Source of the DNA: a virus
Taxonomy: Duplodnaviria > Caudoviricetes
Direction: 5' to 3' (one strand)
Virus record (IMG/VR): IMGVR_UViG_3300027759_000085
Span: 1,452-65,451 of that record
Length of the DNA stretch: 64,000 bases
The translations under genes were made by a program, and so were the position numbers. Every line of letters begins with the position of its first letter. The stretch's first letter is position 1. Under the pieces are notes generated by a model. The model ran no database searches. It had not been told where the DNA came from and was given only the letters and a program-made list of their open reading frames with translations. This document shows positions 1,417 through 62,178 of this stretch, piece after piece.

Positions 1417-1627
1417 TAAATAAATCTGTTGATTCTATAACTACAGATACACAAGCAGTCCATACATACCAATCATTATCACCATCTACTTCTAGTATAT
1501 CATTATAAGAATTTATTGCCGATTGTTTTGGATCAGGTGATTCACCTTCTCTGTAAGTCATCCAATAGTCTTCAAACTTATCGGGTTCTGTTCTGTGTTT
1601 TAGCGTAACTGCTACGATGTAATCCAT
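1409..1627 (-). CDS. hypothetical acidic early protein
   Basis: Start reassigned to MDYIV (AAAAACATG leader). Confidence 0.6.
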   Translation of the reverse strand: MDYIVAVTLKHRTEPDKFEDYWMTYREGESPDPKQSAINSYNDILEVDGDNDWYVWTACVSVVIESTDLFNE

Positions 1628-1643
1628 GTTTTTAGGTTTAAGG

Positions 1644-1823
1644 TTAATAATTAAGATCGGGAAAATCACACGGGTCTGATATAAGACCACAGTCTGGACA
1701 TTCTATCTTGTCTAAGTTTACTTCTACTTCGTGCAATACTACTGAACCACAGTCACCACACGTTACAATGTTAATTCCAGATGATTTTATAATCTCTTGT
1801 TGTAATTCTAATTGTGTTTTCAT
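1644..1823 (-). CDS. small Zn-ribbon protein
   Basis: CGDC...CPDC; start at MKTQLE just after the upstream stop. Confidence 0.7.
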   Translation of the reverse strand: MKTQLELQQEIIKSSGINIVTCGDCGSVVLHEVEVNLDKIECPDCGLISDPCDFPDLNY

Positions 1824-1824
1824 A

Positions 1825-2124
1825 TTATTTCTTTTTAAATTGTTCAAACCATTCTGGTATATCAGCTAATACAAAATCAGAATACTCAATTAAAGTTGCT
1901 TCTATTATCTGTTTAACTTCTTCCTCACTATACATTCTTTTAGCTTGCCATTTAGCACCTTGAATAAAGCCAGTTCTATTTTTAGAATATTTATCTGCTA
2001 ATCCATATATTCTATCAGTAGCTTCTTCAAGTGTTTCTTGCTTAAATTCTTCATACAATCCTAGATTCTCATCATATCTCATCATGTCAATTAGATTTTG
2101 TTTTTGTTCTTCTTTTGGTTTCAT
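1825..2124 (-). CDS. hypothetical protein of the ETLEEA/GAKWQ/MYSEEEV modular phage family
   Basis: Motifs QETLEEA, GAKWQAKRMYSEEEV, EWFEQFKKK, recalled from aquatic Bacteroidota phages. Confidence 0.7.
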   Translation of the reverse strand: MKPKEEQKQNLIDMMRYDENLGLYEEFKQETLEEATDRIYGLADKYSKNRTGFIQGAKWQAKRMYSEEEVKQIIEATLIEYSDFVLADIPEWFEQFKKK

Positions 2125-2140
2125 TTTCTTTTAGTTTAAA

Positions 2141-2359
2141 TTATCTGTAAATACCTGCCCAATTTGAGCCTTGATTAGTTATAAGCACTACTTGAGCCTT
2201 TACTAAACTATCATCCTTTAATTCATTCATAAGGTTTGTTGCTCTATCCAGAGCCTCATCATAATCCTTAGCATAAACAAAGGTAGTATAATCAATGTTA
2301 TTTCCTGCTTTATCCTTGAAGAAAGCTTTATATTTCTTTACTCTGCTAACAAGTCCCAT
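2141..2359 (-). CDS. hypothetical early protein
   Basis: Packed ORF. Confidence 0.55.
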   Translation of the reverse strand: MGLVSRVKKYKAFFKDKAGNNIDYTTFVYAKDYDEALDRATNLMNELKDDSLVKAQVVLITNQGSNWAGIYR

Positions 2360-2622
2360 GATCTTAATTCATTTAGTTTTTTACTATTTAATCCTAATGA
2401 CTTGATAATAAACTTAGCTAGTCTACTGTTAACCTTTGGCTCTGTAACGTCATTAGAGCCTATCTGCTGAACGATCTCTGATGGCTCCATACCTAATACT
2501 CGCTTACAGAATTTAACGTCTTGTCCGAGGTAAAAAGCCTTAGTACCTTGACTGGTAGTTACTTCTAGAGTCCAGTTATGATCAAAGCCATAACTTGAAT
2601 TTATTTTAATTTGTGCTTTCAT
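2338..2622 (-). CDS. hypothetical early protein
   Basis: TAAGAACATG leader; FYLGQDVKFC motif. Confidence 0.75.
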   Translation of the reverse strand: MKAQIKINSSYGFDHNWTLEVTTSQGTKAFYLGQDVKFCKRVLGMEPSEIVQQIGSNDVTEPKVNSRLAKFIIKSLGLNSKKLNELRSWDLLAE

Positions 2623-2626
2623 GTTC

Positions 2627-2722
2627 TTATAAGTTTTGAATTGCAGTTAATATTCCGTTAATTATCCATATTAATGTTACTGTGGCTAGTGGCCATTTGA
2701 TCCATTGTGTTTTAGTTTTCAT
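2627..2722 (-). CDS. 31-aa single-TM microprotein, not in ORF track
   Basis: MKTKTQWIKWPLATVTLIWIINGILTAIQNL; AAAGAACATG leader; its stop is the TAA of the next TAAGAACATG. Confidence 0.6.
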   Translation of the reverse strand: MKTKTQWIKWPLATVTLIWIINGILTAIQNL

Positions 2723-2742
2723 GTTCTTTAATTTTAGTGTGT

Positions 2743-2931
2743 TTAATAATTTATCAATAGTCCAATAGCATATTTTATAAAATGTGATACGTCTTTTCCA
2801 CCAATCAAGTAATTGCCCTCACTATTATAAATATAGGCTCTGAATTTTTCGGTAGTCGTGTTGGTTAATTGAAATTCATTTTCATGCTCAAAAATGAAGT
2901 CTGTAATTGCTCTTTTAAGTTCTGTTCTCAT
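2743..2931 (-). CDS. hypothetical early protein
   Basis: Start reassigned to MRTELK (TAAGAACATG). Confidence 0.7.
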   Translation of the reverse strand: MRTELKRAITDFIFEHENEFQLTNTTTEKFRAYIYNSEGNYLIGGKDVSHFIKYAIGLLINY

Positions 2932-2935
2932 GTTC

Positions 2936-3049
2936 TTAGTTTTTTTTACGGTTAATAATGTACTGTGCAATAGACCCAACTATCATTGCTGGTGCTATAA
3001 TGGCAGTAAAGATTACTGCGATGCTGATAAGATACTCTGTGTTTTCCAT
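2936..3049 (-). CDS. 37-aa single-TM microprotein, not in ORF track
   Basis: MENTEYLISIAVIFTAIIAPAMIVGSIAQYIINRKKN; its stop is the TAA of TAAGAACATG. Confidence 0.6.
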   Translation of the reverse strand: MENTEYLISIAVIFTAIIAPAMIVGSIAQYIINRKKN

Positions 3050-3064
3050 GTTTGATTTAAATTA

Positions 3065-3085
3065 ATGGGAGTTATTAGCTCCCAT
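3065..3085 (-). terminator. intergenic hairpin (terminator or processing site)
   Basis: ATGGGAGTT-ATT-AGCTCCCAT inverted repeat. Confidence 0.4.
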
Positions 3086-3099
3086 ATAAGTGTGAATGA

Positions 3100-3465
3100 T
3101 TATAAGTCTATTGCTTCGCCTAAGTTACAGTCATAATAAGCTAACTGCTCATTATCTCGAGCGTATAAGATAGCTTCTGATCTGCTCTCTATATGAATAG
3201 ATACATCTAATACTAGATCATTACCATCGACCCATGCACCTAAAAAAAGCTCCTGATTTTCACCTGATATAATCAAGTCTGCTTTTATCTTTATGTAATC
3301 AGCAATAGTATACTGCAGATTGTTTGGATTATACTCTGATCTAGATTCATGATCTCTGATCGAAACCATAAAACCATAGTCAGGATTAAATTCACCCGTC
3401 AATAGATTGTAACTTGCACCACCAGTATTGATGATTGCATTTTTGAAATTGATTAAATTGCTCAT
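3100..3465 (-). CDS. conserved phage early protein of unknown function
   Basis: GGASY..GFMVS..LGAW..LDVS..EQLAYYD pattern; TAAGAACATG leader. Confidence 0.75.
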   Translation of the reverse strand: MSNLINFKNAIINTGGASYNLLTGEFNPDYGFMVSIRDHESRSEYNPNNLQYTIADYIKIKADLIISGENQELFLGAWVDGNDLVLDVSIHIESRSEAILYARDNEQLAYYDCNLGEAIDL

Positions 3466-3476
3466 GTTCTTAAGGT

Positions 3477-3719
3477 TTAAAAATTAGTGACTAATAAATG
3501 ATTAATATTGATTTGACTTTTAGTTTCAGTGAAATTTATATGGACTTTAAAGTCATTATTTTTCTTGCTGAATTTAGTGTATAGCCTACACTGTAATGCA
3601 TTGATCACCTCATGCTTATCTTTGTTATGAAATAAACAAAGTGAAATAAAACTTGACTGCTTGCACAAGTCTGCATTGAATAAGTTAACGGCAATATGGT
3701 ATTTTCTGCTCTTTGTCAT
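3477..3719 (-). CDS. hypothetical early protein
   Basis: Packed ORF. Confidence 0.55.
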   Translation of the reverse strand: MTKSRKYHIAVNLFNADLCKQSSFISLCLFHNKDKHEVINALQCRLYTKFSKKNNDFKVHINFTETKSQININHLLVTNF

Positions 3720-3754
3720 AAGATTAAAGATTAAATTGTTTATGATTTGATTAA

Positions 3755-4333
3755 TTAAAAATTACTTTGTACGCTAGCCCATATAATAGCCTGATACTCG
3801 AAGCCCTTAAGCCCTAATTTCTTTGCTTTGCTTATTGTAAGGCGTTCTAACTGATCGTATGCTAAATGGCCTAATGATTGTATGGTTTGATTAAAACAAG
3901 CCCTAATATGCCATACATCTACTGTTATTCGATCTTCATCTAAGCTACCTACATTACATACAAAAGAGTAAGTTTTTCTAGATTCATTAGTAATTTTAAC
4001 AGTACCTAATGCAATAGCAAACGCCTTAAATTTATTGGTGTGAAACGTGCTCACTTTAATATCCGTAGGGCTTAATCCGTTCTTTACTGCATTCAATACA
4101 GTGACCGTATCTTTTAAATTTGTAGCCCATTTATTGCGAGGGCTTAAGGCAGAAACTACAGAGGCAATAACATCTGATCCAATACCGAAAATCTGTTCCT
4201 GATCCTTGCAAAATTGATTTGCATTTTTGTACCAATCAAGCCCGCTTTTGATCTGCTCATTTGTAGCTAGATTAAAGTAATGATCTAGATTTTTAGATAC
4301 TTTTGCTAACTGGTTTTTAGTTAATTTTTTCAT
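3755..4333 (-). CDS. HhH-GPD DNA-glycosylase-like phage protein (DUF7178-like)
   Basis: GLDWY, ALSPRNKW, KTYSF, TVDVWHIRA, QAIIW motifs. Confidence 0.7.
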   Translation of the reverse strand: MKKLTKNQLAKVSKNLDHYFNLATNEQIKSGLDWYKNANQFCKDQEQIFGIGSDVIASVVSALSPRNKWATNLKDTVTVLNAVKNGLSPTDIKVSTFHTNKFKAFAIALGTVKITNESRKTYSFVCNVGSLDEDRITVDVWHIRACFNQTIQSLGHLAYDQLERLTISKAKKLGLKGFEYQAIIWASVQSNF

Positions 4334-4337
4334 GTTC

Positions 4338-4493
4338 TTAATTTTTTAAATAGTTAATAATTAAGGTTTTTAATCTCTTTAAATTGGTTTCTGTAAATTG
4401 CTGGTTTCCGTAGCTTTCCGCTCTATATATATTTTGAATAAAATAAATTCCGAAACCTTTATATTTAGCAAAAAATTTTATGTTTTTTTTCAT
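4338..4493 (-). CDS. 51-aa hypothetical protein, not in ORF track
   Basis: MKKNIKFFAKYKGFGIYF...; starts at a TAAGAACATG and stops in the next one. Confidence 0.65.
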   Translation of the reverse strand: MKKNIKFFAKYKGFGIYFIQNIYRAESYGNQQFTETNLKRLKTLIINYLKN

Positions 4494-4517
4494 GTTCTTA
4501 GATTTAAAGATTAATAA

Positions 4518-4742
4518 TTAATAGCTCCACAAAATTAGATCGTTTAAATTGCACCACCTACGGCAATCATTTTCAATTTTGTGCGTCTCATTACAGTAAG
4601 TAGTTAATTCTGTAGGTTGAAAATCATCTGTTACGTCATAATAACGCAAAGTGATTTTTTTATAATCTGCTGGATCGCTCAAAGCAATACCTAAAACTGT
4701 AGTTTGGCCTGATTTGTCAGTGAATAAAAATACTTTTTTCAT
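4518..4742 (-). CDS. hypothetical early protein
   Basis: ORF immediately downstream of the hammerhead cleavage site. Confidence 0.65.
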   Translation of the reverse strand: MKKVFLFTDKSGQTTVLGIALSDPADYKKITLRYYDVTDDFQPTELTTYCNETHKIENDCRRWCNLNDLILWSY

Positions 4743-4760
4743 GATTGTTTAAATTTTTAT

Positions 4761-4811
4761 GGTTAAGACGCTTCACAGCGTTTCGGATATTTAATCCATC
4801 ATCAGTTAACC
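4761..4811 (-). ncRNA. type I hammerhead ribozyme
   Basis: GGUUAA CUGAUGA U GGAU-uaaau-AUCC GAA ACGC-ugugaa-GCGU C UUAACC: complete catalytic core, three stems, GUC cleavage triplet. Confidence 0.85.
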
Positions 4812-5044
4812 TTAAATTGTATTATACCATTCCAATCAGGATGACTAAATAATTGAGGGCAGAAATAATTATCGAAACCATGCTCTTCTAAATCATCAAT
4901 AAAGTCAGCATATAAATCAGCCTTCATTAAATGTACCGTTCCTTTGTTATAAATCTCTACGTGATAATTAGTTTCCATATCGGCATTCCAGCTACCATTT
5001 ACATAAATTTCAATTAGATTATTCATAATGTTTACTTTTTTCAT
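4802..5044 (-). CDS. hypothetical early protein
   Basis: Its TGA stop is part of the hammerhead CUGAUGA. Confidence 0.65.
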   Translation of the reverse strand: MKKVNIMNNLIEIYVNGSWNADMETNYHVEIYNKGTVHLMKADLYADFIDDLEEHGFDNYFCPQLFSHPDWNGIIQFKVN

Positions 5045-5054
5045 GTTTTTAGGT

Positions 5055-5195
5055 TTAAAGATTAAAATATGTTATTAATTCATTTTCTTGTTTATCAGTT
5101 AACAATAAATTGCCGTCTCTGTATAAACTTAATATTTCTGCATCTGTTGGATTATATCCGTATATTTTTTTATGATTTGCTTTAATTTTTTTCAT
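5055..5195 (-). CDS. 46-aa hypothetical protein, not in ORF track
   Basis: MKKIKANHKKIYGYNPTDAEILSLY...; fills an operon gap. Confidence 0.55.
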   Translation of the reverse strand: MKKIKANHKKIYGYNPTDAEILSLYRDGNLLLTDKQENELITYFNL

Positions 5196-5221
5196 TTTCT
5201 TAGGTTTTTAGGTTTATAGTT

Positions 5222-5455
5222 TTAAATGCAAGTATTTGATAGATCAATATCTATATCTTTATAATTTACAGATAGGTATTTATGTAATTGATTTAAATTT
5301 CTAAATGCTCTGATAGTTTCTTTATCGCTCCAACACGTAGAAAAATGATACTCTTTAATAATGGCAATATAATTACCTTTGAATACTTTGCCTTTGTCTG
5401 CTACCAATAATACATTATCGGTTAGCACGTTTTCTTTTAAAATAAATTGAGTCAT
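5222..5455 (-). CDS. first gene of the early operon, hypothetical
   Basis: TAAGAACATG leader downstream of the promoter. Confidence 0.7.
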   Translation of the reverse strand: MTQFILKENVLTDNVLLVADKGKVFKGNYIAIIKEYHFSTCWSDKETIRAFRNLNQLHKYLSVNYKDIDIDLSNTCI

Positions 5456-5494
5456 GTTCTTAAGTTTTTAAAATTGTTAACTGATTTGATGATA

Positions 5495-5527
5495 CAATAG
5501 TAAGGACAAAGAATAATACAATCCAAA
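5495..5527 (-). promoter_or_regulatory. Bacteroidota sigmaA-type early promoter
   Basis: TTTG (-33), 21-nt spacer, TACTATTG (-7; consensus TAnnTTTG). Confidence 0.6.
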
Positions 5528-5537
5528 TTTATTTGCA

Positions 5538-5619
5538 GTTTATAATGATTCTAAATAAGGAAACTGATTCTGGAGCATGGAAACAAAGATTAAGCACGTA
5601 GTTTATAGAGATTCTAAAT
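5538..5619. promoter_or_regulatory. two Fur-box-like palindromes
   Basis: GTTTATAATGATTCTAAAT (5538-5556) and GTTTATAGAGATTCTAAAT (5601-5619) versus palindrome ATTTAGAATnATTCTAAAT. Confidence 0.5.
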
Positions 5620-14238: not shown

Positions 14239-14490
14239 TTAAACCAATGCAGCGTTAGAAGCAGTAACAACAGCAGCAGGAGTAGCACTAGCCAAAATAG
14301 TTTTGCTTTGGAATAGGTTACCTACATTGTAGCTGTAGTCAATAGCTGATTGAACTCCAGAAGTTACAGTGTTAGCTACAACTCCTTGAATTCTGCTTAC
14401 GCTGATTACTTCAGCAGCAGAAGTATAAACACCTGCTTCGTTAGGATCTTCAGACTGGGTAAAAACATTTAAAGAAATAAGATTTGCCAT
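14239..14490 (-). CDS. small Ala/Val/Ser-rich protein, possible virion component
   Basis: Own TACTTTTG promoter (14530-14537) and terminator; GCT/AAC-rich codons like the capsid gene. Confidence 0.65.
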   Translation of the reverse strand: MANLISLNVFTQSEDPNEAGVYTSAAEVISVSRIQGVVANTVTSGVQSAIDYSYNVGNLFQSKTILASATPAAVVTASNAALV

Positions 14491-14545
14491 CTTTTTTTAG
14501 ATTTAAGGTTAATAAATAAATGAATGATACAAAAGTACATATTAT

Positions 14546-15550
14546 ATGATTAAGATTTTAACGTATGCTCCAGCTATAGGAGATGGTACAAGTTTCTATA
14601 GACTTGCAGGAGTTATGCCATATTTAGAGCAAGAATACAGTGATATTAAAGTAACTGATATATCAAATAATAAGTTTATTGATTGGTATATTCTTATTGG
14701 TGCAGATATATTATTATTTCAGAGACCATTTAACGAACAGCACTTTGCTGCTATTAAGATGGCTAGGAATATGAATATAAAGGTAGTTATTGACTATGAC
14801 GATGATTTGTTTAATATACCTCAAGATAATCCAGTTCATTTAAGTTTTGAGCCTCACAAGGAAACAATGAAGCTTATATGTCAGGTTGTAGATGAAATAT
14901 GGGTATCAACAGATTCAATTAAAAGAACCGTTTCTTTTTGGAATAAGAATGTAACCATTATACCCAATGCTCTCAATGATTATGTATTACCAGTAAATAA
15001 AAAGAAAGAATTTAACTTAGAAACAAAAAAGGTAGCATACAGGGGTGGTACAACTCATGAGGTAGATGTTTACTCAAAGATAGATCAATGGTCGAGTATC
15101 ATAAATAATAATAAAGACTTTGAGTTTTATTTTCTTGGTGCCAGATTCTTATTCTTAGAGTCACTATGTGGAGATAATTATAATGCCATGGTAGGTATGC
15201 ATATTATAGATTACTTTAAATTTTTTTCTGAGCTCAACCCAAACATATTTATATACACATTAAAAGATACACCATTCAATAGAGCTAAGAGCAATATATC
15301 ATGGATAGAGGCAACTTATGCAGGTGCATCGGTAATTGCTCCAGAGTTTCTTCCTGAGTTTGCAACTATGCCAGGTGTTATAACATACAATGAATTAATG
15401 GATAGTGTATTTGAAAATGTAAAAGATCTTAATAAAGGTCTGGCAATAACAAATGATTTATCCTGGAAATATATAAGACAAAACCTTTTATTGTCTCAAG
15501 TAAACAACCAAAGATATCAATCACTACTAGCGTTAAAAAAAAGTAAATAA
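14546..15550 (+). CDS. glycosyltransferase (GT-B-like)
   Basis: FYR, FQR, VVIDYDDDL, FNRAKS..IE motifs. Confidence 0.75.
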   Translation: MIKILTYAPAIGDGTSFYRLAGVMPYLEQEYSDIKVTDISNNKFIDWYILIGADILLFQRPFNEQHFAAIKMARNMNIKVVIDYDDDLFNIPQDNPVHLSFEPHKETMKLICQVVDEIWVSTDSIKRTVSFWNKNVTIIPNALNDYVLPVNKKKEFNLETKKVAYRGGTTHEVDVYSKIDQWSSIINNNKDFEFYFLGARFLFLESLCGDNYNAMVGMHIIDYFKFFSELNPNIFIYTLKDTPFNRAKSNISWIEATYAGASVIAPEFLPEFATMPGVITYNELMDSVFENVKDLNKGLAITNDLSWKYIRQNLLLSQVNNQRYQSLLALKKSK

Positions 15551-15592
15551 ATGTATGTATATTTGTATGTACACTAACAAAGAAAACAATTA

Positions 15593-15802
15593 ATGAAACA
15601 TTCGACAGTAAAAAACAACGTATCTGCAATGTATCCAATACGTTTAAAGTATGTTGAGCGAAAGAAAATAGAAATAGTTGCCGCAGACAAGGGAAGAAAA
15701 GTATCTGAGCATCTACATTGGCTTATTGCTCAATCTATACGAAACTATGAATCTACGTTTGGAGAAATAGAGCTAACTATACAAGAAAGGACAGGGAAAT
15801 GA
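15593..15802 (+). CDS. small putative DNA-binding (RHH-like) protein
   Basis: YPIRL..AADKGRKVSE; TATATTTG promoter at 15558. Confidence 0.45.
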   Translation: MKHSTVKNNVSAMYPIRLKYVERKKIEIVAADKGRKVSEHLHWLIAQSIRNYESTFGEIELTIQERTGK

Positions 15803-16359
15803 AGACATACGGGGATCAGTTTATAATTAAATACGACATCGGATCAATTAGGAAGGTTGAGGTCGGTGGAACCATTATCGAGATTGCAGCGGAATGCAAT
15901 ATGGATATTAGGGGTAACTCTGACCAGATTGGCGTTATTGAATCAGCACCAGAAGGTCATGATTTTTTTAAAAAGGGGGATACGGTATTAACTCATTACT
16001 TGGCATCGGGAAGTGACAGGTCATTTGAGTACGAAGGAATCACATATCACCGTGTCCCCCTTAACATGATTTTCTTAAGAATAAACGAAGATAAAACCTT
16101 TGACTTAAACGACAAGATATACATCTGTGAAGAGATTGTTGTAGAGGCACCAAAGAGCCCCTCAGGGATACTTTTAACTCCGTTTGATGATAAGCGTGAG
16201 CCGATGAAATTGCGTGCCTTACACGTGCCTAAATATAGCCATGGCATACTCGTAGGAGATTACCTTATATCACAAGATGATTACCAGTATACTTTCAACT
16301 ACGACAAGAAGAAGTATATCCAAATTAACTACGATCACATACTAGCAACTTATGAGTAA
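15799..16359 (+). CDS. GroES-like co-chaperonin
   Basis: KKGDTV, SPSGILL and VGD motifs, upstream of terminase. Confidence 0.55.
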   Translation: MKTYGDQFIIKYDIGSIRKVEVGGTIIEIAAECNMDIRGNSDQIGVIESAPEGHDFFKKGDTVLTHYLASGSDRSFEYEGITYHRVPLNMIFLRINEDKTFDLNDKIYICEEIVVEAPKSPSGILLTPFDDKREPMKLRALHVPKYSHGILVGDYLISQDDYQYTFNYDKKKYIQINYDHILATYE

Positions 16360-16714
16360 GATAGATAAAAAAGGACTTACCAAGAATCAGCTAGAGTACA
16401 TTACTAAGATAGAAGAAGAGTTAGATTTATTTAAGAACGATGGAGCTAAAAGACTATTGTCTGAGTTGTCTGGTATAGCTGGAGACTTTGCCGATGATAT
16501 AGTTAAAATAAGAAGCGGAGAAGGTGTTGGTGTTTACATTAATGAGAACGCCAACGACAAAATGATAGACAAGGTAATGAAGCTTGTAGATAAGATGGAT
16601 AAGTTTAAGTTACTTGCTCAACTAAGCTCTCCTGAAGAAGAAGTAAAAGAAATTAAAAAAAGTATTAGAAGACCAGAGGACTTAGCATTCAATGTCAACA
16701 AGGATAGATCATAA
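16352..16714 (+). CDS. putative terminase small subunit
   Basis: Helical 120 aa, overlapping the TerL start. Confidence 0.4.
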   Translation: MSKIDKKGLTKNQLEYITKIEEELDLFKNDGAKRLLSELSGIAGDFADDIVKIRSGEGVGVYINENANDKMIDKVMKLVDKMDKFKLLAQLSSPEEEVKEIKKSIRRPEDLAFNVNKDRS

Positions 16715-18704
16715 GTTAATAGAGGGTGCGTTAGAGAAATTTGAAAGACGAAAGATCTGTGGAGAGATAACTGTTGACCTTCCTCAGCCTCCACCATTTA
16801 GGACTATTGATAATTACGAAAAGAAAAAGAAGGACCAGAAATTTAACTACCTTAATATTCCAGATGATATAGATGACCTAATAGATACATTAGGAGATGA
16901 CTTTATTGAACGTGAGTACAATAGGATAAGACACGGTTATTGGTTTTTTAACTACGGTAATCTTGAATACATAACTGGATATCACTACGCATTCCTTAAC
17001 TATATGTACATAGATGGTGAAAAGCCATTGTTTACAGATGCACAAAGAGACTTCTTCTATGCCTGGGATGCTGCAGAGAAAGACCCTACTTGTTATGGAC
17101 TTTGCTTAACTACTCCCAGACGATGGGGTAAGGGTGAAGTATCTATTATTATTGCTTACCTAAGAACTATATTAAATCCATTCTCTCACTGTGGTATACA
17201 GTCAAAGACAGCAGATGATGCTAAGGGTCTGTATTCCAAGCTTGTACAAAGATGGCAACGTATGCCTCAGTACCTTAAACCTATTGATGAGGGTGAATCT
17301 AACCCAAAGAGTGCTCTACGTTTCTTTGAGCCAAGCATAAGAAGCACTAAGATCCAAAGAAAAGAATACAAGAAAGCATTAAACTCCTGGATAGACTTTG
17401 CTGCTACAGTAAAGACTGCATATGATGGTCAGAAGTTAAAGACTTATATATATGATGAGATTGCAAAAGCTGAAGGTATTGACGTAAAGGAGTGTTGGGA
17501 TATTGTTAAGTTCTGTTTAGTTAACGGATCTACTATTATAGGCAAAGCTCTTTTAACTACAACCGTAGAAGATGGTGACTCATTCGAGTCTTCAATTAAA
17601 TACAAAGAAATCTGGGAGCAATCAAATCCTAACTCCAAGCTTGAAAGTGGTAAGACACAGTCTGGGCTATGGAGGTATTTTAATCCTGCGTTTATGGGTT
17701 ACTATGGGTGTGATGATGTTACTGGTGTTTCATTCATTGATGACTACGGATACTCAAGGCAAGAGTTAGCAAAAGAATACATATTAAGACAAAGGATTGG
17801 TTTAGATGACAGGTCCTTAGCTTCAATGAAACGTAAACTACCTTTAACAGTAGAAGAAGCCTTTCAAACAGATGCTAGTCAATGTCACTTCAACGCTATT
17901 AACTTATCTGACCAGCTCACCTACTTAAGAGAGTATGCACCTAAGGGATTAGTAAACAGAGTTACATTCTACAGGAAGACAGATAACACTGTTACTTGGA
18001 GACCAGACCCTAGGGGTAAGTTCCAGATGTGTTGGGATTTCAAAGACCAAGCTCAATCAAATAAAAATACGTTTGAACATGGATTAAGAAAGCCTAATAA
18101 TACGGAGTCATTCGCTATTGGAGTCGATCCATTTGCCTCTACTATTATTACTGGGGACCAAGGCTCAAATGGAGTAGCTTACGTATATAGAAAGGATGAC
18201 ATAAACGATCCAGAAGATAGTGGACTTGTTGTGTGTAGGTATGCAGATAGACCGCCACTTAAGTCTATATTTCACGATCAGATTATTATGATGTGTGAAT
18301 ACTATGGATGTAAAGCTAATTACGAAAGTGATGTAGAGGATTACTATGAATACTTCATTAATAAAGGATATAAGAACTATGTCATGTGGAGACCTAAGTC
18401 TACCATAGATCCCAATAGAAAAAATAAAAAGGTAAAGTACGGTACACCATCTAAGGATCCATTTGCCTTACAGAAACATTTTGACACTGTTTTTAATTAC
18501 GTTGAGCTAAGGTGCGATAAAATATATTTCGAGGAATTAATACTTGACCTTGTAGCATATAAACACGTTAAAAGAACAAAGTTTGATGATACTGTAGCAT
18601 TTGGTATGAGTCTTCTTGCAGGAACAGAAAATGTTAAGGCACAAAAGGATGATGCTCCATTAGTGTTCATGAAATATGCTCAGCCAATTAAGCTTAACTA
18701 CTAA
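16692..18704 (+). CDS. terL: terminase large subunit
   Basis: Walker A PRRWGKG, Walker B YIYDE, nuclease GVDP and DDTV. Confidence 0.9.
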   Translation: MSTRIDHKLIEGALEKFERRKICGEITVDLPQPPPFRTIDNYEKKKKDQKFNYLNIPDDIDDLIDTLGDDFIEREYNRIRHGYWFFNYGNLEYITGYHYAFLNYMYIDGEKPLFTDAQRDFFYAWDAAEKDPTCYGLCLTTPRRWGKGEVSIIIAYLRTILNPFSHCGIQSKTADDAKGLYSKLVQRWQRMPQYLKPIDEGESNPKSALRFFEPSIRSTKIQRKEYKKALNSWIDFAATVKTAYDGQKLKTYIYDEIAKAEGIDVKECWDIVKFCLVNGSTIIGKALLTTTVEDGDSFESSIKYKEIWEQSNPNSKLESGKTQSGLWRYFNPAFMGYYGCDDVTGVSFIDDYGYSRQELAKEYILRQRIGLDDRSLASMKRKLPLTVEEAFQTDASQCHFNAINLSDQLTYLREYAPKGLVNRVTFYRKTDNTVTWRPDPRGKFQMCWDFKDQAQSNKNTFEHGLRKPNNTESFAIGVDPFASTIITGDQGSNGVAYVYRKDDINDPEDSGLVVCRYADRPPLKSIFHDQIIMMCEYYGCKANYESDVEDYYEYFINKGYKNYVMWRPKSTIDPNRKNKKVKYGTPSKDPFALQKHFDTVFNYVELRCDKIYFEELILDLVAYKHVKRTKFDDTVAFGMSLLAGTENVKAQKDDAPLVFMKYAQPIKLNY

Positions 18705-18725
18705 AAAACAATACTTTAAATTAAT

Positions 18726-18733
18726 TAACTTTG
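18726..18733 (+). promoter_or_regulatory. late promoter -7 box
   Basis: TAAT-TAACTTTG-TAA before portal. Confidence 0.6.
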
Positions 18734-18756
18734 TAACTGAATTTACATTAACATAA

Positions 18757-56095: not shown

Positions 56096-56297
56096 GTATA
56101 GAGTCCCTAAGGATGATGATTTAAGTCATTCAGTATATCTAAATGCTAATGGAGACCTTATGCACCTGTTATTTGTTAATCTACCTGTAGCTGGAGTATT
56201 TGAGTGGGAAGACAGTGATGGCCCTCAACAAGATTTTTTTGTAGAATTTAAATGGGAAGAGGATGATAATGATGATGACGATGAATACTTTTATTAA
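56070..56297 (+). CDS. hypothetical protein with acidic tail
   Basis: Start at MSNRRK. Confidence 0.55.
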   Translation: MSNRRKLPKYRVPKDDDLSHSVYLNANGDLMHLLFVNLPVAGVFEWEDSDGPQQDFFVEFKWEEDDNDDDDEYFY

Positions 56298-56313
56298 CTA
56301 AATAAAAAGAAAT

Positions 56314-57578: not shown

Positions 57579-58139
57579 ATGAATAATTTAAAATTTTGTA
57601 GGTCTTGCGAAAAAGATAAAAGCATATATGAGTTTTATAAAAAAGGAGAATATGCAGACGGAAGATACCCAAGGTGTATAGAATGTGTAAAAAGAAAAAT
57701 ATATTTACCAGAAAAAACTTTAATTATTAATAACAAAAAGCAATGTACTAAATGTAATGAATTTAAGGATTTAAGTTTTTTTAGTAAAAGAATTAATAGA
57801 AAATCTGGAGTCCAATCTTCTTGCAAGAAGTGCAAAAATAAACGTGTTAAGAGAGACCCTAAAAAAACTAGAGAGATTAGCCTATATAAATCTTATAATA
57901 TATCATCATTAGATTTTGAAAATATTCTAGCATCTCAAAATAATAAATGTGCTATATGTGGTATAGACCAAAACTCATTAAAAGATGGTAAGAAAAAATA
58001 TCTATGTGTTGACCATTGTCATATAACTGGCAGTATTAGAGGTTTATTATGCGATAAATGCAATAGAGGTATAGGATTATTAAGTGATAATATAGATAAT
58101 CTTTTTAATGCTATAGCTTATTTAAAAAAATATAAGTGA
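57579..58139 (+). CDS. endonuclease VII-type HNH (homing) endonuclease with Zn fingers
   Basis: CAIC..VDHCH..RGLLC..CN plus two N-terminal CxxC pairs; very AT-rich. Confidence 0.85.
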   Translation: MNNLKFCRSCEKDKSIYEFYKKGEYADGRYPRCIECVKRKIYLPEKTLIINNKKQCTKCNEFKDLSFFSKRINRKSGVQSSCKKCKNKRVKRDPKKTREISLYKSYNISSLDFENILASQNNKCAICGIDQNSLKDGKKKYLCVDHCHITGSIRGLLCDKCNRGIGLLSDNIDNLFNAIAYLKKYK

Positions 58140-58143
58140 TACT

Positions 58144-58204
58144 ACTTAGAATCATTCTAAATTGTAAATAAATTTTGTAGTGTCAATTACATTATAGATA
58201 TTTA
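58144..58204 (+). promoter_or_regulatory. Fur-box-like palindrome plus promoter resembling the early promoter
   Basis: TTAGAAT-C-ATTCTAA (58146-58160), then TGTAAATAAATTTTG as on the minus strand at 5524-5556; -7 box is weak. Confidence 0.55.
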
Positions 58205-58207
58205 CCG

Positions 58208-58282
58208 ATGTAAATTTTTCATGTTCTTTAGTTAATAATGGGCGAGTATGTTTGGTGGTTCTTACTGCTCGCCCTTATTTTC
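58208..58282 (+). ncRNA. putative sRNA antisense to early-gene start codons
   Basis: TTTTTCATGTTCTTTAG tract followed by a GGGCGAGTA/TGCTCGCCC terminator hairpin and TTATTTT. Confidence 0.55.
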
Positions 58283-58304
58283 TAACCTAACCCAACAAAC
58301 CTTT

Positions 58305-58670
58305 ATGAAAAAACTTTTGATTTTTAAAACAGATGGTAAAAACAGAGTATTTGAAACTGGTAGTCAAAGAGATAATGACACCAACAAGTCATTGCCTAAT
58401 CACCTAGATGCCTATGTACGTATGAGGTATGGTTACCTGCTCAGGCATGGAGCTAATCATTACGATAAGGGTAACTGGAGAAAGGGTCAACCTACCGAGG
58501 CAGCAATTGAAAGTCTTCATAGACACCTAGCTAAGTTTGAGATCAATCAAGATCTTGGTTTGCCACAGGATGAGGATCATCTGTCTGCTATTATATTTAA
58601 TGTTCAGCTAATTATGAAGAACGAACAGAGAGAAGGTGTTAAGGTTGATCAGTATTACATTCCTATTTAG
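58305..58670 (+). CDS. dATP/dGTP diphosphohydrolase domain protein (DUF5664)
   Basis: GANHY..NWRKG..SLHRHL..DEDHLSAIIFN. Confidence 0.8.
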   Translation: MKKLLIFKTDGKNRVFETGSQRDNDTNKSLPNHLDAYVRMRYGYLLRHGANHYDKGNWRKGQPTEAAIESLHRHLAKFEINQDLGLPQDEDHLSAIIFNVQLIMKNEQREGVKVDQYYIPI

Positions 58671-58678
58671 TTTTTTAA

Positions 58679-58740
58679 GTAAAACGCTTATTATTTGTGT
58701 AAAACACTTAAATGCACCCATTATTTATGTAAAACGCTTA
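58679..58740. repeat. three direct repeats GTAAAACRCTTA
   Basis: 58679-58690, 58699-58710, 58729-58740. Confidence 0.7.
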
Positions 58741-58952
58741 TTTTTGTCACATATTTAATTAGTATTTGGGACTAAAATTCAAATTAATGTGCATTATATT
58801 ACACTTTATATTAAACAATATTAAATAATGGCAGGTGATTTTTTTTATTACAAACTATTGTGCAATATTTTGCACTTTATGATGTATATTATCATCAAAA
58901 TAAGAAGAAATGAAGAAAATATTCACCATTGCTAAACTAAGAAATAATTACT

Positions 58953-59557: not shown

Positions 59558-60612
59558 TGATTAAAAAATACAGTAGAGCCAATGAGTTTACGCAAGACAT
59601 CATTGACTCTCAGCATACTACATTTGATAAGGGGTGGAGTTGTGGTTGGAATATAGGTGATGAAAATATAAGTTTTAAAAGAGGTTACACTTCTTATATT
59701 TATAGTCACCCAGGTCAGGGCAAGACTGTATTTGTTACTGAGTCTCTACTTTGTTTAGCTAAGAACGATAATCTTAATGTGTGTATCTATTCACCTGAGA
59801 CTGGAGGTAGGAGTGAGATAGTTTGGAATCTTATACAGGTTTATACTGGGAAGAGATTGTACGGTAAGAATGCTCACAAGATAAGTAAGGATGAGATCGA
59901 GAAGGCTATTGAGTTTATTGATAAGCACTTCATTATACTGGAGCATAACCCATTCTCTGGTAAGGGCAACGAGAGGTTTACAGTAAAGGATATATTTAAT
60001 CAGGTACACATGGCTGAGAAGGAATACGATATGAAGGTAGATGTACTATGTATTGATCCATTCAATCTATTGGACAGGGAGCTAGAGGATGATCGTAAGG
60101 CTATACAGGACTATGTTCTTAGCACCCTTGGTTTTATTAACTCAGCATCTAAGAAAATGAATCTACATACCATATTAGTTGCTCACCTTGCAGGAGATGA
60201 ATTAATAGTAGACAAGGATACAGGTATAGAGTATAGTCCTAAGCCACACCCTAGTAAGCTAGCAGGTGGCCAGAGTTTCTGGAGAGCAGGGTTCCAAATG
60301 ATAGGTATCTGGAGACTTCCCTACGGTTGTTTAGATAAGCAGGGGTTCGCTTATAAAGAGAACTCTATGTGGATTATGACCCAGAAGGTAAAGCCTATAG
60401 GTACAGGAAGGCTCGGTCACTTTGAATTGTATTACGATACCAATACTCATACACTATATGAGACATTCGGAGACAAGAGATTTAGGTGTGGAGAGATGAA
60501 CAATAACTTTAGCTTATATGTAGACGCTGGGTTCTCAAAGATGGAGTCTTCCATAAAACCTAATACACTATTTGACAGTAAGTCTGAACCAGATTTAACT
60601 AACCCATTCTAA
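59557..60612 (+). CDS. SF4 (DnaB/T7 gp4-like) replicative helicase
   Basis: HPGQGKT, SPE, IDPFN, LVAH, QKVK..G. Confidence 0.85.
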   Translation: MIKKYSRANEFTQDIIDSQHTTFDKGWSCGWNIGDENISFKRGYTSYIYSHPGQGKTVFVTESLLCLAKNDNLNVCIYSPETGGRSEIVWNLIQVYTGKRLYGKNAHKISKDEIEKAIEFIDKHFIILEHNPFSGKGNERFTVKDIFNQVHMAEKEYDMKVDVLCIDPFNLLDRELEDDRKAIQDYVLSTLGFINSASKKMNLHTILVAHLAGDELIVDKDTGIEYSPKPHPSKLAGGQSFWRAGFQMIGIWRLPYGCLDKQGFAYKENSMWIMTQKVKPIGTGRLGHFELYYDTNTHTLYETFGDKRFRCGEMNNNFSLYVDAGFSKMESSIKPNTLFDSKSEPDLTNPF

Positions 60613-62080: not shown

Positions 62081-62178
62081 AGTCAGGTGGCGGAATCAGG
62101 TAGACGCTAAGTTAACAGACAGAAGGAGATGGAGAGGAATGGCTCGCCTTCATACAGGTTCAAATCCTGTCCTGACTA
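62081..62178 (+). tRNA. tRNA-like RNA (Leu-type D/T arms, no canonical anticodon arm)
   Basis: AGTCAGG/CCTGACT acceptor, GCGGAATCAGGTAGACGC D arm, ACAGG-TTCAAAT-CCTGT T arm; TATATTTG promoter at 62064. Confidence 0.65.

What the first reader, a model, noticed from the sequence alone, without database searches (positions are those of the whole stretch)
58144..58282. Candidate phage sRNA antisense to the shared start-codon motif of early genes
Seen: a short unit of promoter-like sequence, TTTTTCATGTTCTTTAG and a GC terminator hairpin. The tract is the reverse complement of the AAGAACATG(AAA) leader of seven minus-strand early genes, with ATGs at 2622, 2722, 2931, 3465, 4333, 4493 and 5455. It gives 10-15 contiguous nt of pairing, e.g. 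TTTTCATGTTCTTTA at 2716-2730. Near matches occur at 1627, 5044 and 5195. Read on the minus strand it encodes only MKNLHR*, so it is not itself a gene start. Inference: a single trans-acting sRNA that shuts off translation of the early regulon by masking start codons, which suits SD-less Bacteroidota initiation.
Basis: partly seen in the sequence, partly recalled or inferred. Interest (0 to 1): 0.85.

Follow-up and report, generated by a model that had tools for sequence, protein, structure and literature searches.

The report
Phage short RNA unit mirroring early-gene starts
A small promoter-to-terminator unit in a Flavobacteriia-type phage carries an inverted copy of the sequence around the start codons of the phage's own early genes, so it may make a short RNA that masks those starts, but no RNA has been seen.

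Summary
AAGAACATG occurs 8 times in the window, all on the minus strand: 7 at early-gene starts and 1 at 58220-58228 (0.9 expected). A leader matrix built without that site scores it 20.2 bits, the best hit outside the early operon (chance 0.7-2.3% per window).

The site lies in a compact unit:
- a Flavobacteriaceae-type Fur box (58144-58162), also found in front of the early operon;
- a small hairpin;
- an unpaired linker (58215-58239);
- a strong terminator (58240-58281), 23 nt before a dATP/dGTP diphosphohydrolase-like gene.

The unit recurs at 14 of 52 related loci. Box and terminator are kept, but the linker is not. Lineage B lacks it and shows no antisense bias to its own early starts. 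Lineage C carries a different linker that mirrors a different early-type leader (19 nt exact).

A trans-acting anti-leader RNA is plausible (about 0.4) but unproven. No RNA data cover the unit, and the decisive co-variation test could not be run. The main rival is a cis leader or attenuator carrying a relic of a gene junction.

The parts
58144..58162 (+). Fur-box-like operator (ACTTAGAATCATTCTAAAT). It contains the perfect palindrome TTAGAAT-C-ATTCTAA at 58146-58160.
   Evidence: Matches 17 of 19 positions of the box predicted for Riemerella anatipestifer, for which EMSA is reported (PMC5609570, passages read). A second copy lies at 5525-5554 on the minus strand. The box is invariant in 11 aligned units. 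It also precedes KatG-type peroxidase and sufBC genes in metagenome contigs.
58158..58204 (+). Promoter-like region with candidate -7/-33 elements: TAAATTG at 58158-58164, TTTG at 58174-58177, GATATTTA at 58197-58204. The transcription start is not known; candidates lie near 58172, 58184 and 58210.
   Evidence: Read by eye against the Bacteroidota -33 TTTG / -7 TAnnTTTG consensus, which is recalled. The existence of -7/-33 elements in Flavobacterium is mentioned in a PMC5609570 passage. TTT(T)G and TTTAC are conserved at fixed spacing in lineages A, B and C. The sigma-70 scan was uninformative.
58200..58215 (+). Small hairpin ATTTAC-CGAT-GTAAAT
   Evidence: Predicted in the MFE folds. The TTTAC arm is invariant in all 11 aligned units. 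Lineage B reads TTTAC-CTCA-GTAAA.
58215..58239 (+). Unpaired U-rich linker, the 'seed'. It is the reverse complement of an early gene junction: [ATTATTAAC][TAAAGAACATGAAAAA].
   Evidence: It is unpaired in 2 of 3 candidate RNAs and partly paired in the third. It is present only in lineages A/A' and, with a different sequence, in C.
58240..58281 (+). Intrinsic terminator: stem GGGCGAGTA/TACTGCTCGCCC with a long loop, then TTATTTT. AATAA (58235-58239) can extend the stem by pairing with TTATT. The loop holds a second GTTCTTA at 58258-58264.
   Evidence: Fold z-scores are -3.5 to -4.2. A hairpin plus T-run is present in 10 of 10 folded representatives of lineages A, A', B and C, with different stem sequences.
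58305..58670 (+). dATP/dGTP diphosphohydrolase-like gene, always directly downstream of the unit
   Evidence: PF18909, E 5.4e-11. It is the neighbour in all 14 loci that have the unit.
5521..5557 (-). Second copy of the box plus TAAATTTG, about 70 nt upstream of the first early ATG (5455)
2620..5461 (-). Seven early-gene starts with the leader TAAGAACATG, the putative targets. Near matches are at 1627, 5044 and 5195.
   Evidence: In at least two junctions (4338-4340 and 2627-2629) the TAA of the motif is the stop codon of the upstream ORF.

Best explanation
58144-58282 is a self-contained short transcription unit placed as the 5' leader of the dATP/dGTP diphosphohydrolase-like gene. It consists of a host-type (Fur-box) promoter region, a small hairpin, an unpaired U-rich linker and a strong intrinsic terminator.

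Transcription that stops at the terminator would release an RNA of about 70-110 nt. Read-through would give the mRNA of the downstream gene.

In this lineage the linker is an inverted copy of the early-operon gene junction (stop region, leader, ATG and the first codons). The released RNA can therefore pair over roughly -25 to +8 of eight or more early mRNAs. Its most likely action is as a trans antisense RNA that hinders ribosome binding at these Shine-Dalgarno-less starts.

Shown: the sequence features, their non-random match, the conservation of box and terminator, and the lineage-specific linkers.

Inferred: that the promoter fires, that the terminator stops transcription, and that pairing and repression happen in the cell.
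For: - Motif statistics: 8 of 8 AAGAACATG on the minus strand against 0.9 expected. Site 58222 scores 20.2 bits on a leader matrix built without it, with 0.007-0.023 such hits expected per window. The adjacent ATTATTAAC is otherwise found on the minus strand only in three early junctions.
- Predicted partners: contiguous complements of 15, 14, 14, 12, 11, 10, 10 and 10 nt to early starts. With the linker alone, 8 of the 9 best RNAduplex partners among 94 start regions are early genes, with mean energies of -14.7 against -9.2 kcal/mol.
- Placement: the tract is unpaired and sits directly 5' of the terminator.
- Conservation: the unit occurs at 14 of 52 related loci while its upstream neighbour varies. 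The box is invariant, and a terminator is present in 10 of 10 folded representatives with diverged stems.
- Shared box: the same box precedes the early operon and matches a published Flavobacteriaceae Fur box at 17 of 19 positions.
- Second lineage: the reverse complement of the L041 linker matches an early leader in L244 exactly over 19 nt up to the ATG, and a second L244 leader over 14 nt. The reverse complement of the L241 linker matches the window's 1627 leader over 14 nt.
- Lineage specificity: the L244-type 19-mer has 0 matches in the window at up to 3 mismatches. The window's leader motif has only chance-level matches in L244 (2 against 1.5 expected).
Against: - No RNA evidence of any kind covers the unit.
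- The linker is absent in lineage B (4 of 11 aligned units).
- In the two lineage B genomes that hold both the unit and the early operon, the unit's RNA is no more complementary to early starts than to others (maxima 8 against 8, and 10 against 10). Their leader motif AACCCTTAA never occurs in antisense orientation. Anti-leader pairing is therefore not the conserved core function of the unit.
- The nine closest relatives carry CATGTAC-TTAG instead of CATGTTCTTTAG, and their early leaders are unknown.
- The lineage C support rests on contigs from different samples that are not shown to be the same phage.
- Pairing is A/U-rich. Leaders are A-rich and the linker is U-rich, which inflates weak matches. 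One non-early start (56314) also has 12 nt.
- AATAA of the linker can pair with the terminator's T-run, which offers a structural reason for part of the tract.
- The unit and the early operon share the same box, so they may be expressed together rather than in sequence.
Confidence: 0.4

Rival explanations
1. The unit is a cis-acting leader or attenuator only. It is the regulated promoter and leader of the diphosphohydrolase-like gene, and expression depends on read-through or antitermination at the hairpin. The linker is a neutral relic or insertion of an inverted gene-junction fragment with no trans function.
For: - The promoter-like box, terminator and gene follow in one orientation with only 23 nt between the T-run and the ATG. 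The gene's mRNA must therefore pass the hairpin.
- The unit is always tied to this gene while the upstream neighbour varies.
- Lineage B keeps the box, small hairpin and terminator without any linker tract.
- The minus-strand reading of the tract looks like a fossil junction (...SPIIN* followed by MKNLHR*) without a real ORF.
Against: - A relic that keeps exactly the -25..+8 part of a junction and nothing else needs two flanking deletions or a short inverted patch.
- An unrelated linker in lineage C is again antisense to an early-type leader.
- No alternative antiterminator pairing was seen by eye, though none was searched for systematically.
- No Rfam leader or riboswitch family matches.
Confidence: 0.33
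2. There is no dedicated RNA. The hairpin is simply the terminator of the long upstream plus-strand (late) gene block, the box is an operator or promoter that happens to lie before it, and the complementarity reflects generic junction sequence that this phage uses on both strands.
For: - All genes from about 10 kb to 57.5 kb run on the plus strand into this spot.
- A plus-strand junction upstream of ATG 56314 also carries TTATTAACTAAA.
- Lineage B early operons are full of hairpin-plus-leader cassettes.
Against: - The order of box before terminator is conserved in three lineages.
- The CATGTTCTT core is found nowhere else in the window outside the early starts.
- The match is significant for the whole window.
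Confidence: 0.15
3. The motif acts at the DNA level. A phage or host protein would recognise the leader-like sequence in either orientation, so the copy at 58215-58239 is one more binding site rather than an RNA seed.
For: The motif is repeated at many junctions and occurs once in inverted orientation near a regulatory box.
Against: - The motif is locked to the ATG with fixed spacing, and at some junctions it includes the upstream stop codon. This points to the RNA and translation level.
- There is no palindromy and no candidate binding protein.
Confidence: 0.07
4. The site is a real minus-strand gene start for a micro-ORF (MKNLHR).
For: It has a leader-like context, and the six codons are unchanged in the close relatives.
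Against: - The ORF has only 6 codons.
- It is absent in lineages B and C.
- No minus-strand genes or promoter-like box lie nearby.
- The close relatives are too similar for the conservation to mean much.
Confidence: 0.03

Closest known systems
Fur-repressed base-pairing sRNAs of bacteria
   Same: A Fur-type box at the promoter and a short RNA ending in an intrinsic terminator. An unpaired seed is complementary to the translation initiation regions of several mRNAs.
   Different: The unit is phage-encoded. The putative targets are the phage's own early genes through one shared leader. The hosts (Bacteroidota) lack Hfq (recalled). No homology exists: Rfam found nothing. Expression and Fur control are untested.
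Phage antisense RNAs that mask ribosome binding sites: P22 sar, P1/P7 c4, lambda OOP (recalled)
   Same: A short phage RNA with its own promoter and terminator, complementary to the start region of phage genes, acting as a translational block.
   Different: Those RNAs are encoded opposite to or next to their targets. Here the unit lies 53 kb away in the record (about 13 kb if the genome is circular), so it would act purely in trans on eight or more targets.
Lambda sRNA PreS/LPR1 (bioRxiv 10.1101/2024.10.31.621285; abstract and outline read)
   Same: A phage-encoded trans-acting sRNA that regulates by base-pairing during infection.
   Different: According to the abstract, PreS acts on host genes of the replication machinery. 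The present candidate would act on phage early genes. There is no sequence relation.
Promoter-proximal terminated leaders under antitermination, such as the lambda PR'-tR' 6S RNA (recalled)
   Same: Promoter, short structured RNA and strong terminator lie directly in front of the genes they control.
   Different: No antiterminator protein or RNA element (nut, put or qut-like) was identified here. The linker's match to distant start codons has no counterpart in those systems.

Membership tests
Trans-acting base-pairing sRNA (functional class) | Own promoter | tested here: inconclusive
   The box is shared with the early operon and with cellular genes. The -7/-33-like elements were read by eye only. 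There is no transcription start data.
Trans-acting base-pairing sRNA (functional class) | Intrinsic terminator that defines a short RNA | tested here: met
   Hairpin plus T-run, fold z-scores -3.5 to -4.2. Present in 10 of 10 folded relatives.
Trans-acting base-pairing sRNA (functional class) | Accessible seed complementary to several mRNAs at their start regions | tested here: met
Trans-acting base-pairing sRNA (functional class) | Seed conserved or co-varying with its targets | tested here: inconclusive
   Absent in lineage B. Changed in the close relatives, whose targets are unknown. Lineage C has a different anti-leader linker, but no contig links it to its own early operon.
Trans-acting base-pairing sRNA (functional class) | A discrete transcript is detected | not testable with these tools
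   No RNA holder was listed. The single run laid does not cover the unit.
Any curated RNA family (Rfam 15) | Covariance-model match | tested here: not met
   At 57900-58500 with E up to 10, only a chance snoRNA hit at E 3.5. In the whole window at gathering score, only a tRNA.
Cis-antisense phage RNAs (sar, c4, OOP type) | Encoded on the opposite strand of, or adjacent to, the target | tested here: not met
   The targets lie at 1627-5461 and the unit at 58144-58282.
Transcription attenuator or riboswitch-type leader | Terminator between promoter and gene, in one orientation | tested here: met
Transcription attenuator or riboswitch-type leader | Mutually exclusive antiterminator structure or a known ligand or protein site | not tested
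   Inspected by eye only. No systematic search for alternative structures was made, and the script machine was lost.
Flavobacteriaceae Fur box | 19-bp palindrome ATTTAGAATTATTCTAAAT upstream of iron or oxidative-stress genes | tested here: met
   17 of 19 positions at 58144-58162 and 16 of 19 at the early copy (by eye). The same box precedes KatG-type peroxidase and sufBC genes. Binding by Fur itself was not tested.

The most novel reading that the evidence does not exclude
A phage-encoded sRNA with a Fur-box promoter ties host iron or oxidative status to translation of the phage's whole early regulon. It does so by masking a shared Shine-Dalgarno-less leader and start codon. Its seed is renewed in each lineage by copying the current early-gene junction in inverted orientation (lineage A: anti-TAAAGAACATG; lineage C: anti-AACTTAAACTTAAAAC or anti-CCTTAAACCTAAAA).
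Probability: 0.25. Interest if true: 0.85.

Novelty: new variant of a known kind. Interest (0 to 1): 0.6.

Why it matters
If the RNA is real and acts as proposed, one short RNA would control a whole block of phage early genes through a shared start-site sequence. This would occur in a bacterial phylum where translation starts without a Shine-Dalgarno sequence and where very little is known about RNA regulators or phage gene timing.

The Fur-type box on both the unit and the early operon would also make phage development answer to the host's iron or oxidative state.

Even under the rival reading, the conserved arrangement of Fur box, leader and terminator in front of a nucleotide-pool enzyme is a defined and testable regulatory module for uncultured Flavobacteriia phages.

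Tried and rejected
Known RNA families. Rfam found nothing for the unit.

Expression. No RNA holder was listed. The one run laid (X1, RNA by guess, contigs only) covers only 57609-58000 and 59814-60000, not the unit. This says nothing either way.

Promoters. The sigma-70 and terminator consensus scans were uninformative. They missed the long-looped terminator.

Co-variation in the close relatives (linker variant GTAC):
- Their five longest records hold only the unit's own copy of AAGWACATG.
- ORF maps show that at most the far end of a convergent minus-strand block is reached.
- A search with that distal protein found only its own contig.
- tblastn of 18 window early proteins against all fetched loci found nothing closer than 72% identity, which is G006.
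- TAAGWACATG occurs more than once only in the window's own loci; 213 of 246 loci have no match.

Lineage C. The records of L041 and L241 lack an early operon, and the record of L244 lacks a unit. Relatives of an L244 early protein (4 loci) have no box.

Other attempts:
These were mostly unrelated cellular or repeat contexts, so it did not yield relatives.
- There are no cultured relatives. Only distant protein-level or 70% DNA hits were found.
- RNAalifold on the MAFFT alignment gave no consensus pairs, so hairpins were folded one by one.
- The minus-strand gene reading was rejected.
- A promoter inside the hairpin (TATGTTTG at 58247-58254) was considered. It is not conserved in relatives.
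- Pairing of the linker with the downstream gene's own start (8 nt) was considered. It is not conserved, because the relatives start ATGAGT.
- Supplementary files of papers were closed and none was consulted. Table 5 of PMC5609570 was seen only as the passages printed.

Full report
WHAT IS THERE.

The window is bases 1452-65451 of a 65,451-base IMG/VR virus record, with 34% G+C. Small minus-strand ORFs fill 1-10 kb. From about 10 kb to the end every sizeable ORF is on the plus strand.

The finding lies in the 165-nt gap between two plus-strand genes. Upstream is an endonuclease VII/HNH-type gene (57579-58139, PF02945, E 3e-19). Downstream is a dATP/dGTP diphosphohydrolase-like gene (ATG at 58305, PF18909, E 5e-11).

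Read 5' to 3' on the plus strand, the gap holds:
- a 19-bp box, ACTTAGAATCATTCTAAAT, with a perfect 7-1-7 palindrome (58144-58162);
- a T-rich stretch with TTTG (58174-58177);
- a small hairpin ATTTAC-CGAT-GTAAAT (58200-58215);
- a strong hairpin, GGGCGAGTA...TACTGCTCGCCC (58240-58274), followed by TTATTTT;
- 23 nt of A/C-rich leader before the ATG.

AAGAACATG occurs 8 times, always on the minus strand. Seven copies are at ORF starts between 2620 and 5461, and one is at 58220-58228. The expectation is 0.9, and none of 100 shuffles reached 8.

One stray 9-mer would not be surprising on its own, because the expected chance count is about one. I therefore built a position matrix from the seven leaders (-14 to +9) without the site in question. 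That site scores 20.2 bits. It ranks directly after the true and near leaders and well above the next hit outside the early operon, which scores 13.6. Sequences simulated from the window's own order-1 and order-3 statistics gave 0.023 and 0.007 such hits per window (300 runs each).

The match also extends. GTTAATAAT (58231-58239) is the reverse complement of ATTATTAAC. That 9-mer occurs only six times in the window, and three of those copies are in early junctions.

Contiguous complementarity between the candidate RNA and the start regions is 15, 14, 14, 12, 11, 10, 10 and 10 nt for early genes. The best of 73 other starts have 12 and 10 nt. With the linker alone, 8 of the 9 best RNAduplex partners are early genes.

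The minus strand encodes only MKNLHR*. The frame entering the tract (...SPIIN*) has no start codon.

In at least two early junctions the TAA of TAAGAACATG is the stop codon of the preceding ORF. The repeated motif is therefore a gene junction (stop, spacer, start), not only a leader.

THE UNIT IS CONSERVED; THE TRACT IS NOT.

The downstream protein has 52 related loci in IMG/VR. In 14 of them the same box, with at most 2 mismatches, lies upstream of the gene in the same orientation. The other 38 lack it, and the gene abuts other coding sequence. One more unit (L241) came from a pattern scan.

The upstream neighbour varies. The HNH gene is in the window only; elsewhere the neighbour is a phosphoesterase-like ORF or another ORF. 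The unit therefore travels with the downstream gene.

An alignment of 11 distinct units shows three lineages:
- Lineage A/A' is the window plus nine near-identical contigs.
- Lineage B is L022 (G006), L024 (G007), L025 and L028.
- Lineage C is L041 and L241.

The box, a TTT(T)G, the TTTAC arm of the small hairpin, and a terminal hairpin with a T-run are present in all three. The hairpin stems differ in sequence but fold in 10 of 10 representatives.

The tract between the small hairpin and the terminator is 25 nt in A/A' and absent in B. In C it is 22-38 nt of different sequence. In A' it reads CATGTAC-TTAG instead of CATGTTCTTTAG.

WHAT THE BOX IS.

A second copy of the box lies at 5525-5554 on the minus strand, about 70 nt before the first early ATG, and a weaker third copy lies a little further upstream. 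The third was also marked in that note.

G006 and G007 have the same layout: a box before the unit, and boxes before a convergent early operon.

The box matches the 19-bp Fur box predicted for Riemerella anatipestifer (Flavobacteriaceae) at 17 of 19 positions. Binding of Fur to promoter fragments containing that box was reported there (PMC5609570, passages read).

Among them the box sits 33 nt before a 745-aa two-domain peroxidase (KatG type) and about 60 nt before sufB-sufC.

The box is therefore a cellular Fur-family operator type that the phage uses at both of its early-looking promoters. Where transcription starts in the unit is unknown. Depending on which -7-like element is used, the terminated RNA would be about 70, 100 or 110 nt. 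In two of these three forms the tract is fully unpaired.

DOES THE TRACT FOLLOW THE LEADERS?

Lineage B gives a negative control. The early leaders of G006 and G007 are of the AAACCCTTAA-ATG type, and neither record has any TAAGNACATG. Their units lack the tract, and the RNA is no more complementary to early starts than to others (8 against 8, and 10 against 10). AACCCTTAA occurs 7 times in each genome, always in the sense orientation in the early operon. Anti-leader pairing is therefore not the conserved function of the unit. Equally, where the motif is absent the tract is absent.

Lineage C gave an unexpected result:
- The reverse complement of L041's linker matches an early-operon leader of another contig (L244) exactly over 19 nt, ending at the A of the ATG. 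It matches a second L244 leader over 14 nt.
- The reverse complement of L241's shorter linker matches the window's own 1627 leader over 14 nt.
- The matches are lineage-specific. The 19-mer has no match in the window at up to 3 mismatches, and the window's motif is at chance level in L244.

L244 and L041 come from different samples and cannot be shown to be one phage. This is suggestive, not decisive.

HOW IT MOST LIKELY WORKS.

The order of box, leader, terminator and gene, with 23 nt between the T-run and the ATG, means that the diphosphohydrolase-like gene can only be expressed by reading through the hairpin. Most transcripts probably stop there and release a short RNA.

The unpaired part of that RNA is, in two of three lineages, an inverted copy of the current early-gene junction. 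It covers just the stretch that a ribosome must reach. I therefore take a trans-acting anti-leader RNA as the single most likely reading, at about 0.4.

A relic explanation needs two deletions that spare exactly this stretch, and it needs this twice independently.

Several points count against my reading:
- There are no RNA data. The one run laid does not cover the unit.
- The tract is absent in lineage B.
- The centre of the tract is changed in A'.
- Pairing is A/U-rich and of low complexity.
- AATAA at 58235-58239 may simply extend the terminator stem.
- The unit shares its box with the early operon, so timing is not explained.

The cis-only leader or attenuator with a relic tract is nearly as likely, at about 0.33.

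COMPARISON WITH KNOWN SYSTEMS.

By working principle the candidate resembles Fur-repressed sRNAs (RyhB class) and phage antisense RNAs that mask start sites (P22 sar, P1 c4). These comparisons are recalled, not tested. It also resembles the recently described trans-acting lambda sRNA PreS, which acts on host genes (abstract read).

It is not a member of any curated RNA family. It is not a cis-antisense RNA, because its targets lie 53 kb away in the record.

Full-text searches for phage sRNAs acting on the phage's own early genes, or for sRNAs of Flavobacterium phages, found nothing relevant in the listings. This covers only the open-access library.

VERDICT.

Interest is 0.6. If true, it would be a new variant of a known kind.

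Noticed in passing
window 58144-58162 and 5525-5554 (minus); loci L119 7493-9730 (minus), L124 172-2372: The palindromic box shared by the unit and the early operon is a cellular Fur-family operator type. It matches the published Riemerella Fur box at 17 of 19 positions. The same box precedes a KatG-type peroxidase and sufBC in low-GC metagenome contigs.
   Followed up: partly
window 58670-58745 and 58780-58880: Between the diphosphohydrolase-like gene and the next gene lie three roughly 20-nt direct repeats (core TGTAAAACGCTTATT) and two 30-nt repeats. They look like iterons or operators, possibly an origin or a second control region.
   Followed up: no
window 57579-58139: The endonuclease VII/HNH-type gene sits between the phosphoesterase-like gene and the unit only in this genome. 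In relatives L013-L016 and L018 the unit starts 2 nt after the upstream ORF's stop. The gene therefore looks like a free-standing homing-type insertion.
   Followed up: no
L101 (G006) 14249-18740 minus; G007 (L104+L105) early operon: Early operons of lineage B relatives carry repeated cassettes of a GC-rich hairpin, a T-run, AAACCCTTAA and the ATG. The 9-mer occurs 7 times per genome, always in sense orientation. The window's early operon has no such hairpins.
   Followed up: partly
The Rfam scan of the whole window at gathering scores reports only a tRNA at 62081-62178 and no hammerhead. No permissive scan of that spot was run.
   Followed up: no
whole record: CheckV rates the 65.4-kb record 59% complete. 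More distant relatives that share the DUF7178 early gene are rated 94-100% complete at 59-63 kb. G006 shows the early operon converging on the replication genes within 11 kb. The record may therefore be nearly complete and circularly permuted.
   Followed up: no
window 56291-56302: The plus-strand junction before the phosphoesterase-like gene (ATG 56314) carries TTATTAACTAAA, the same stop-rich module as the early junctions. It gives a 12-nt complement to the linker.
   Followed up: no
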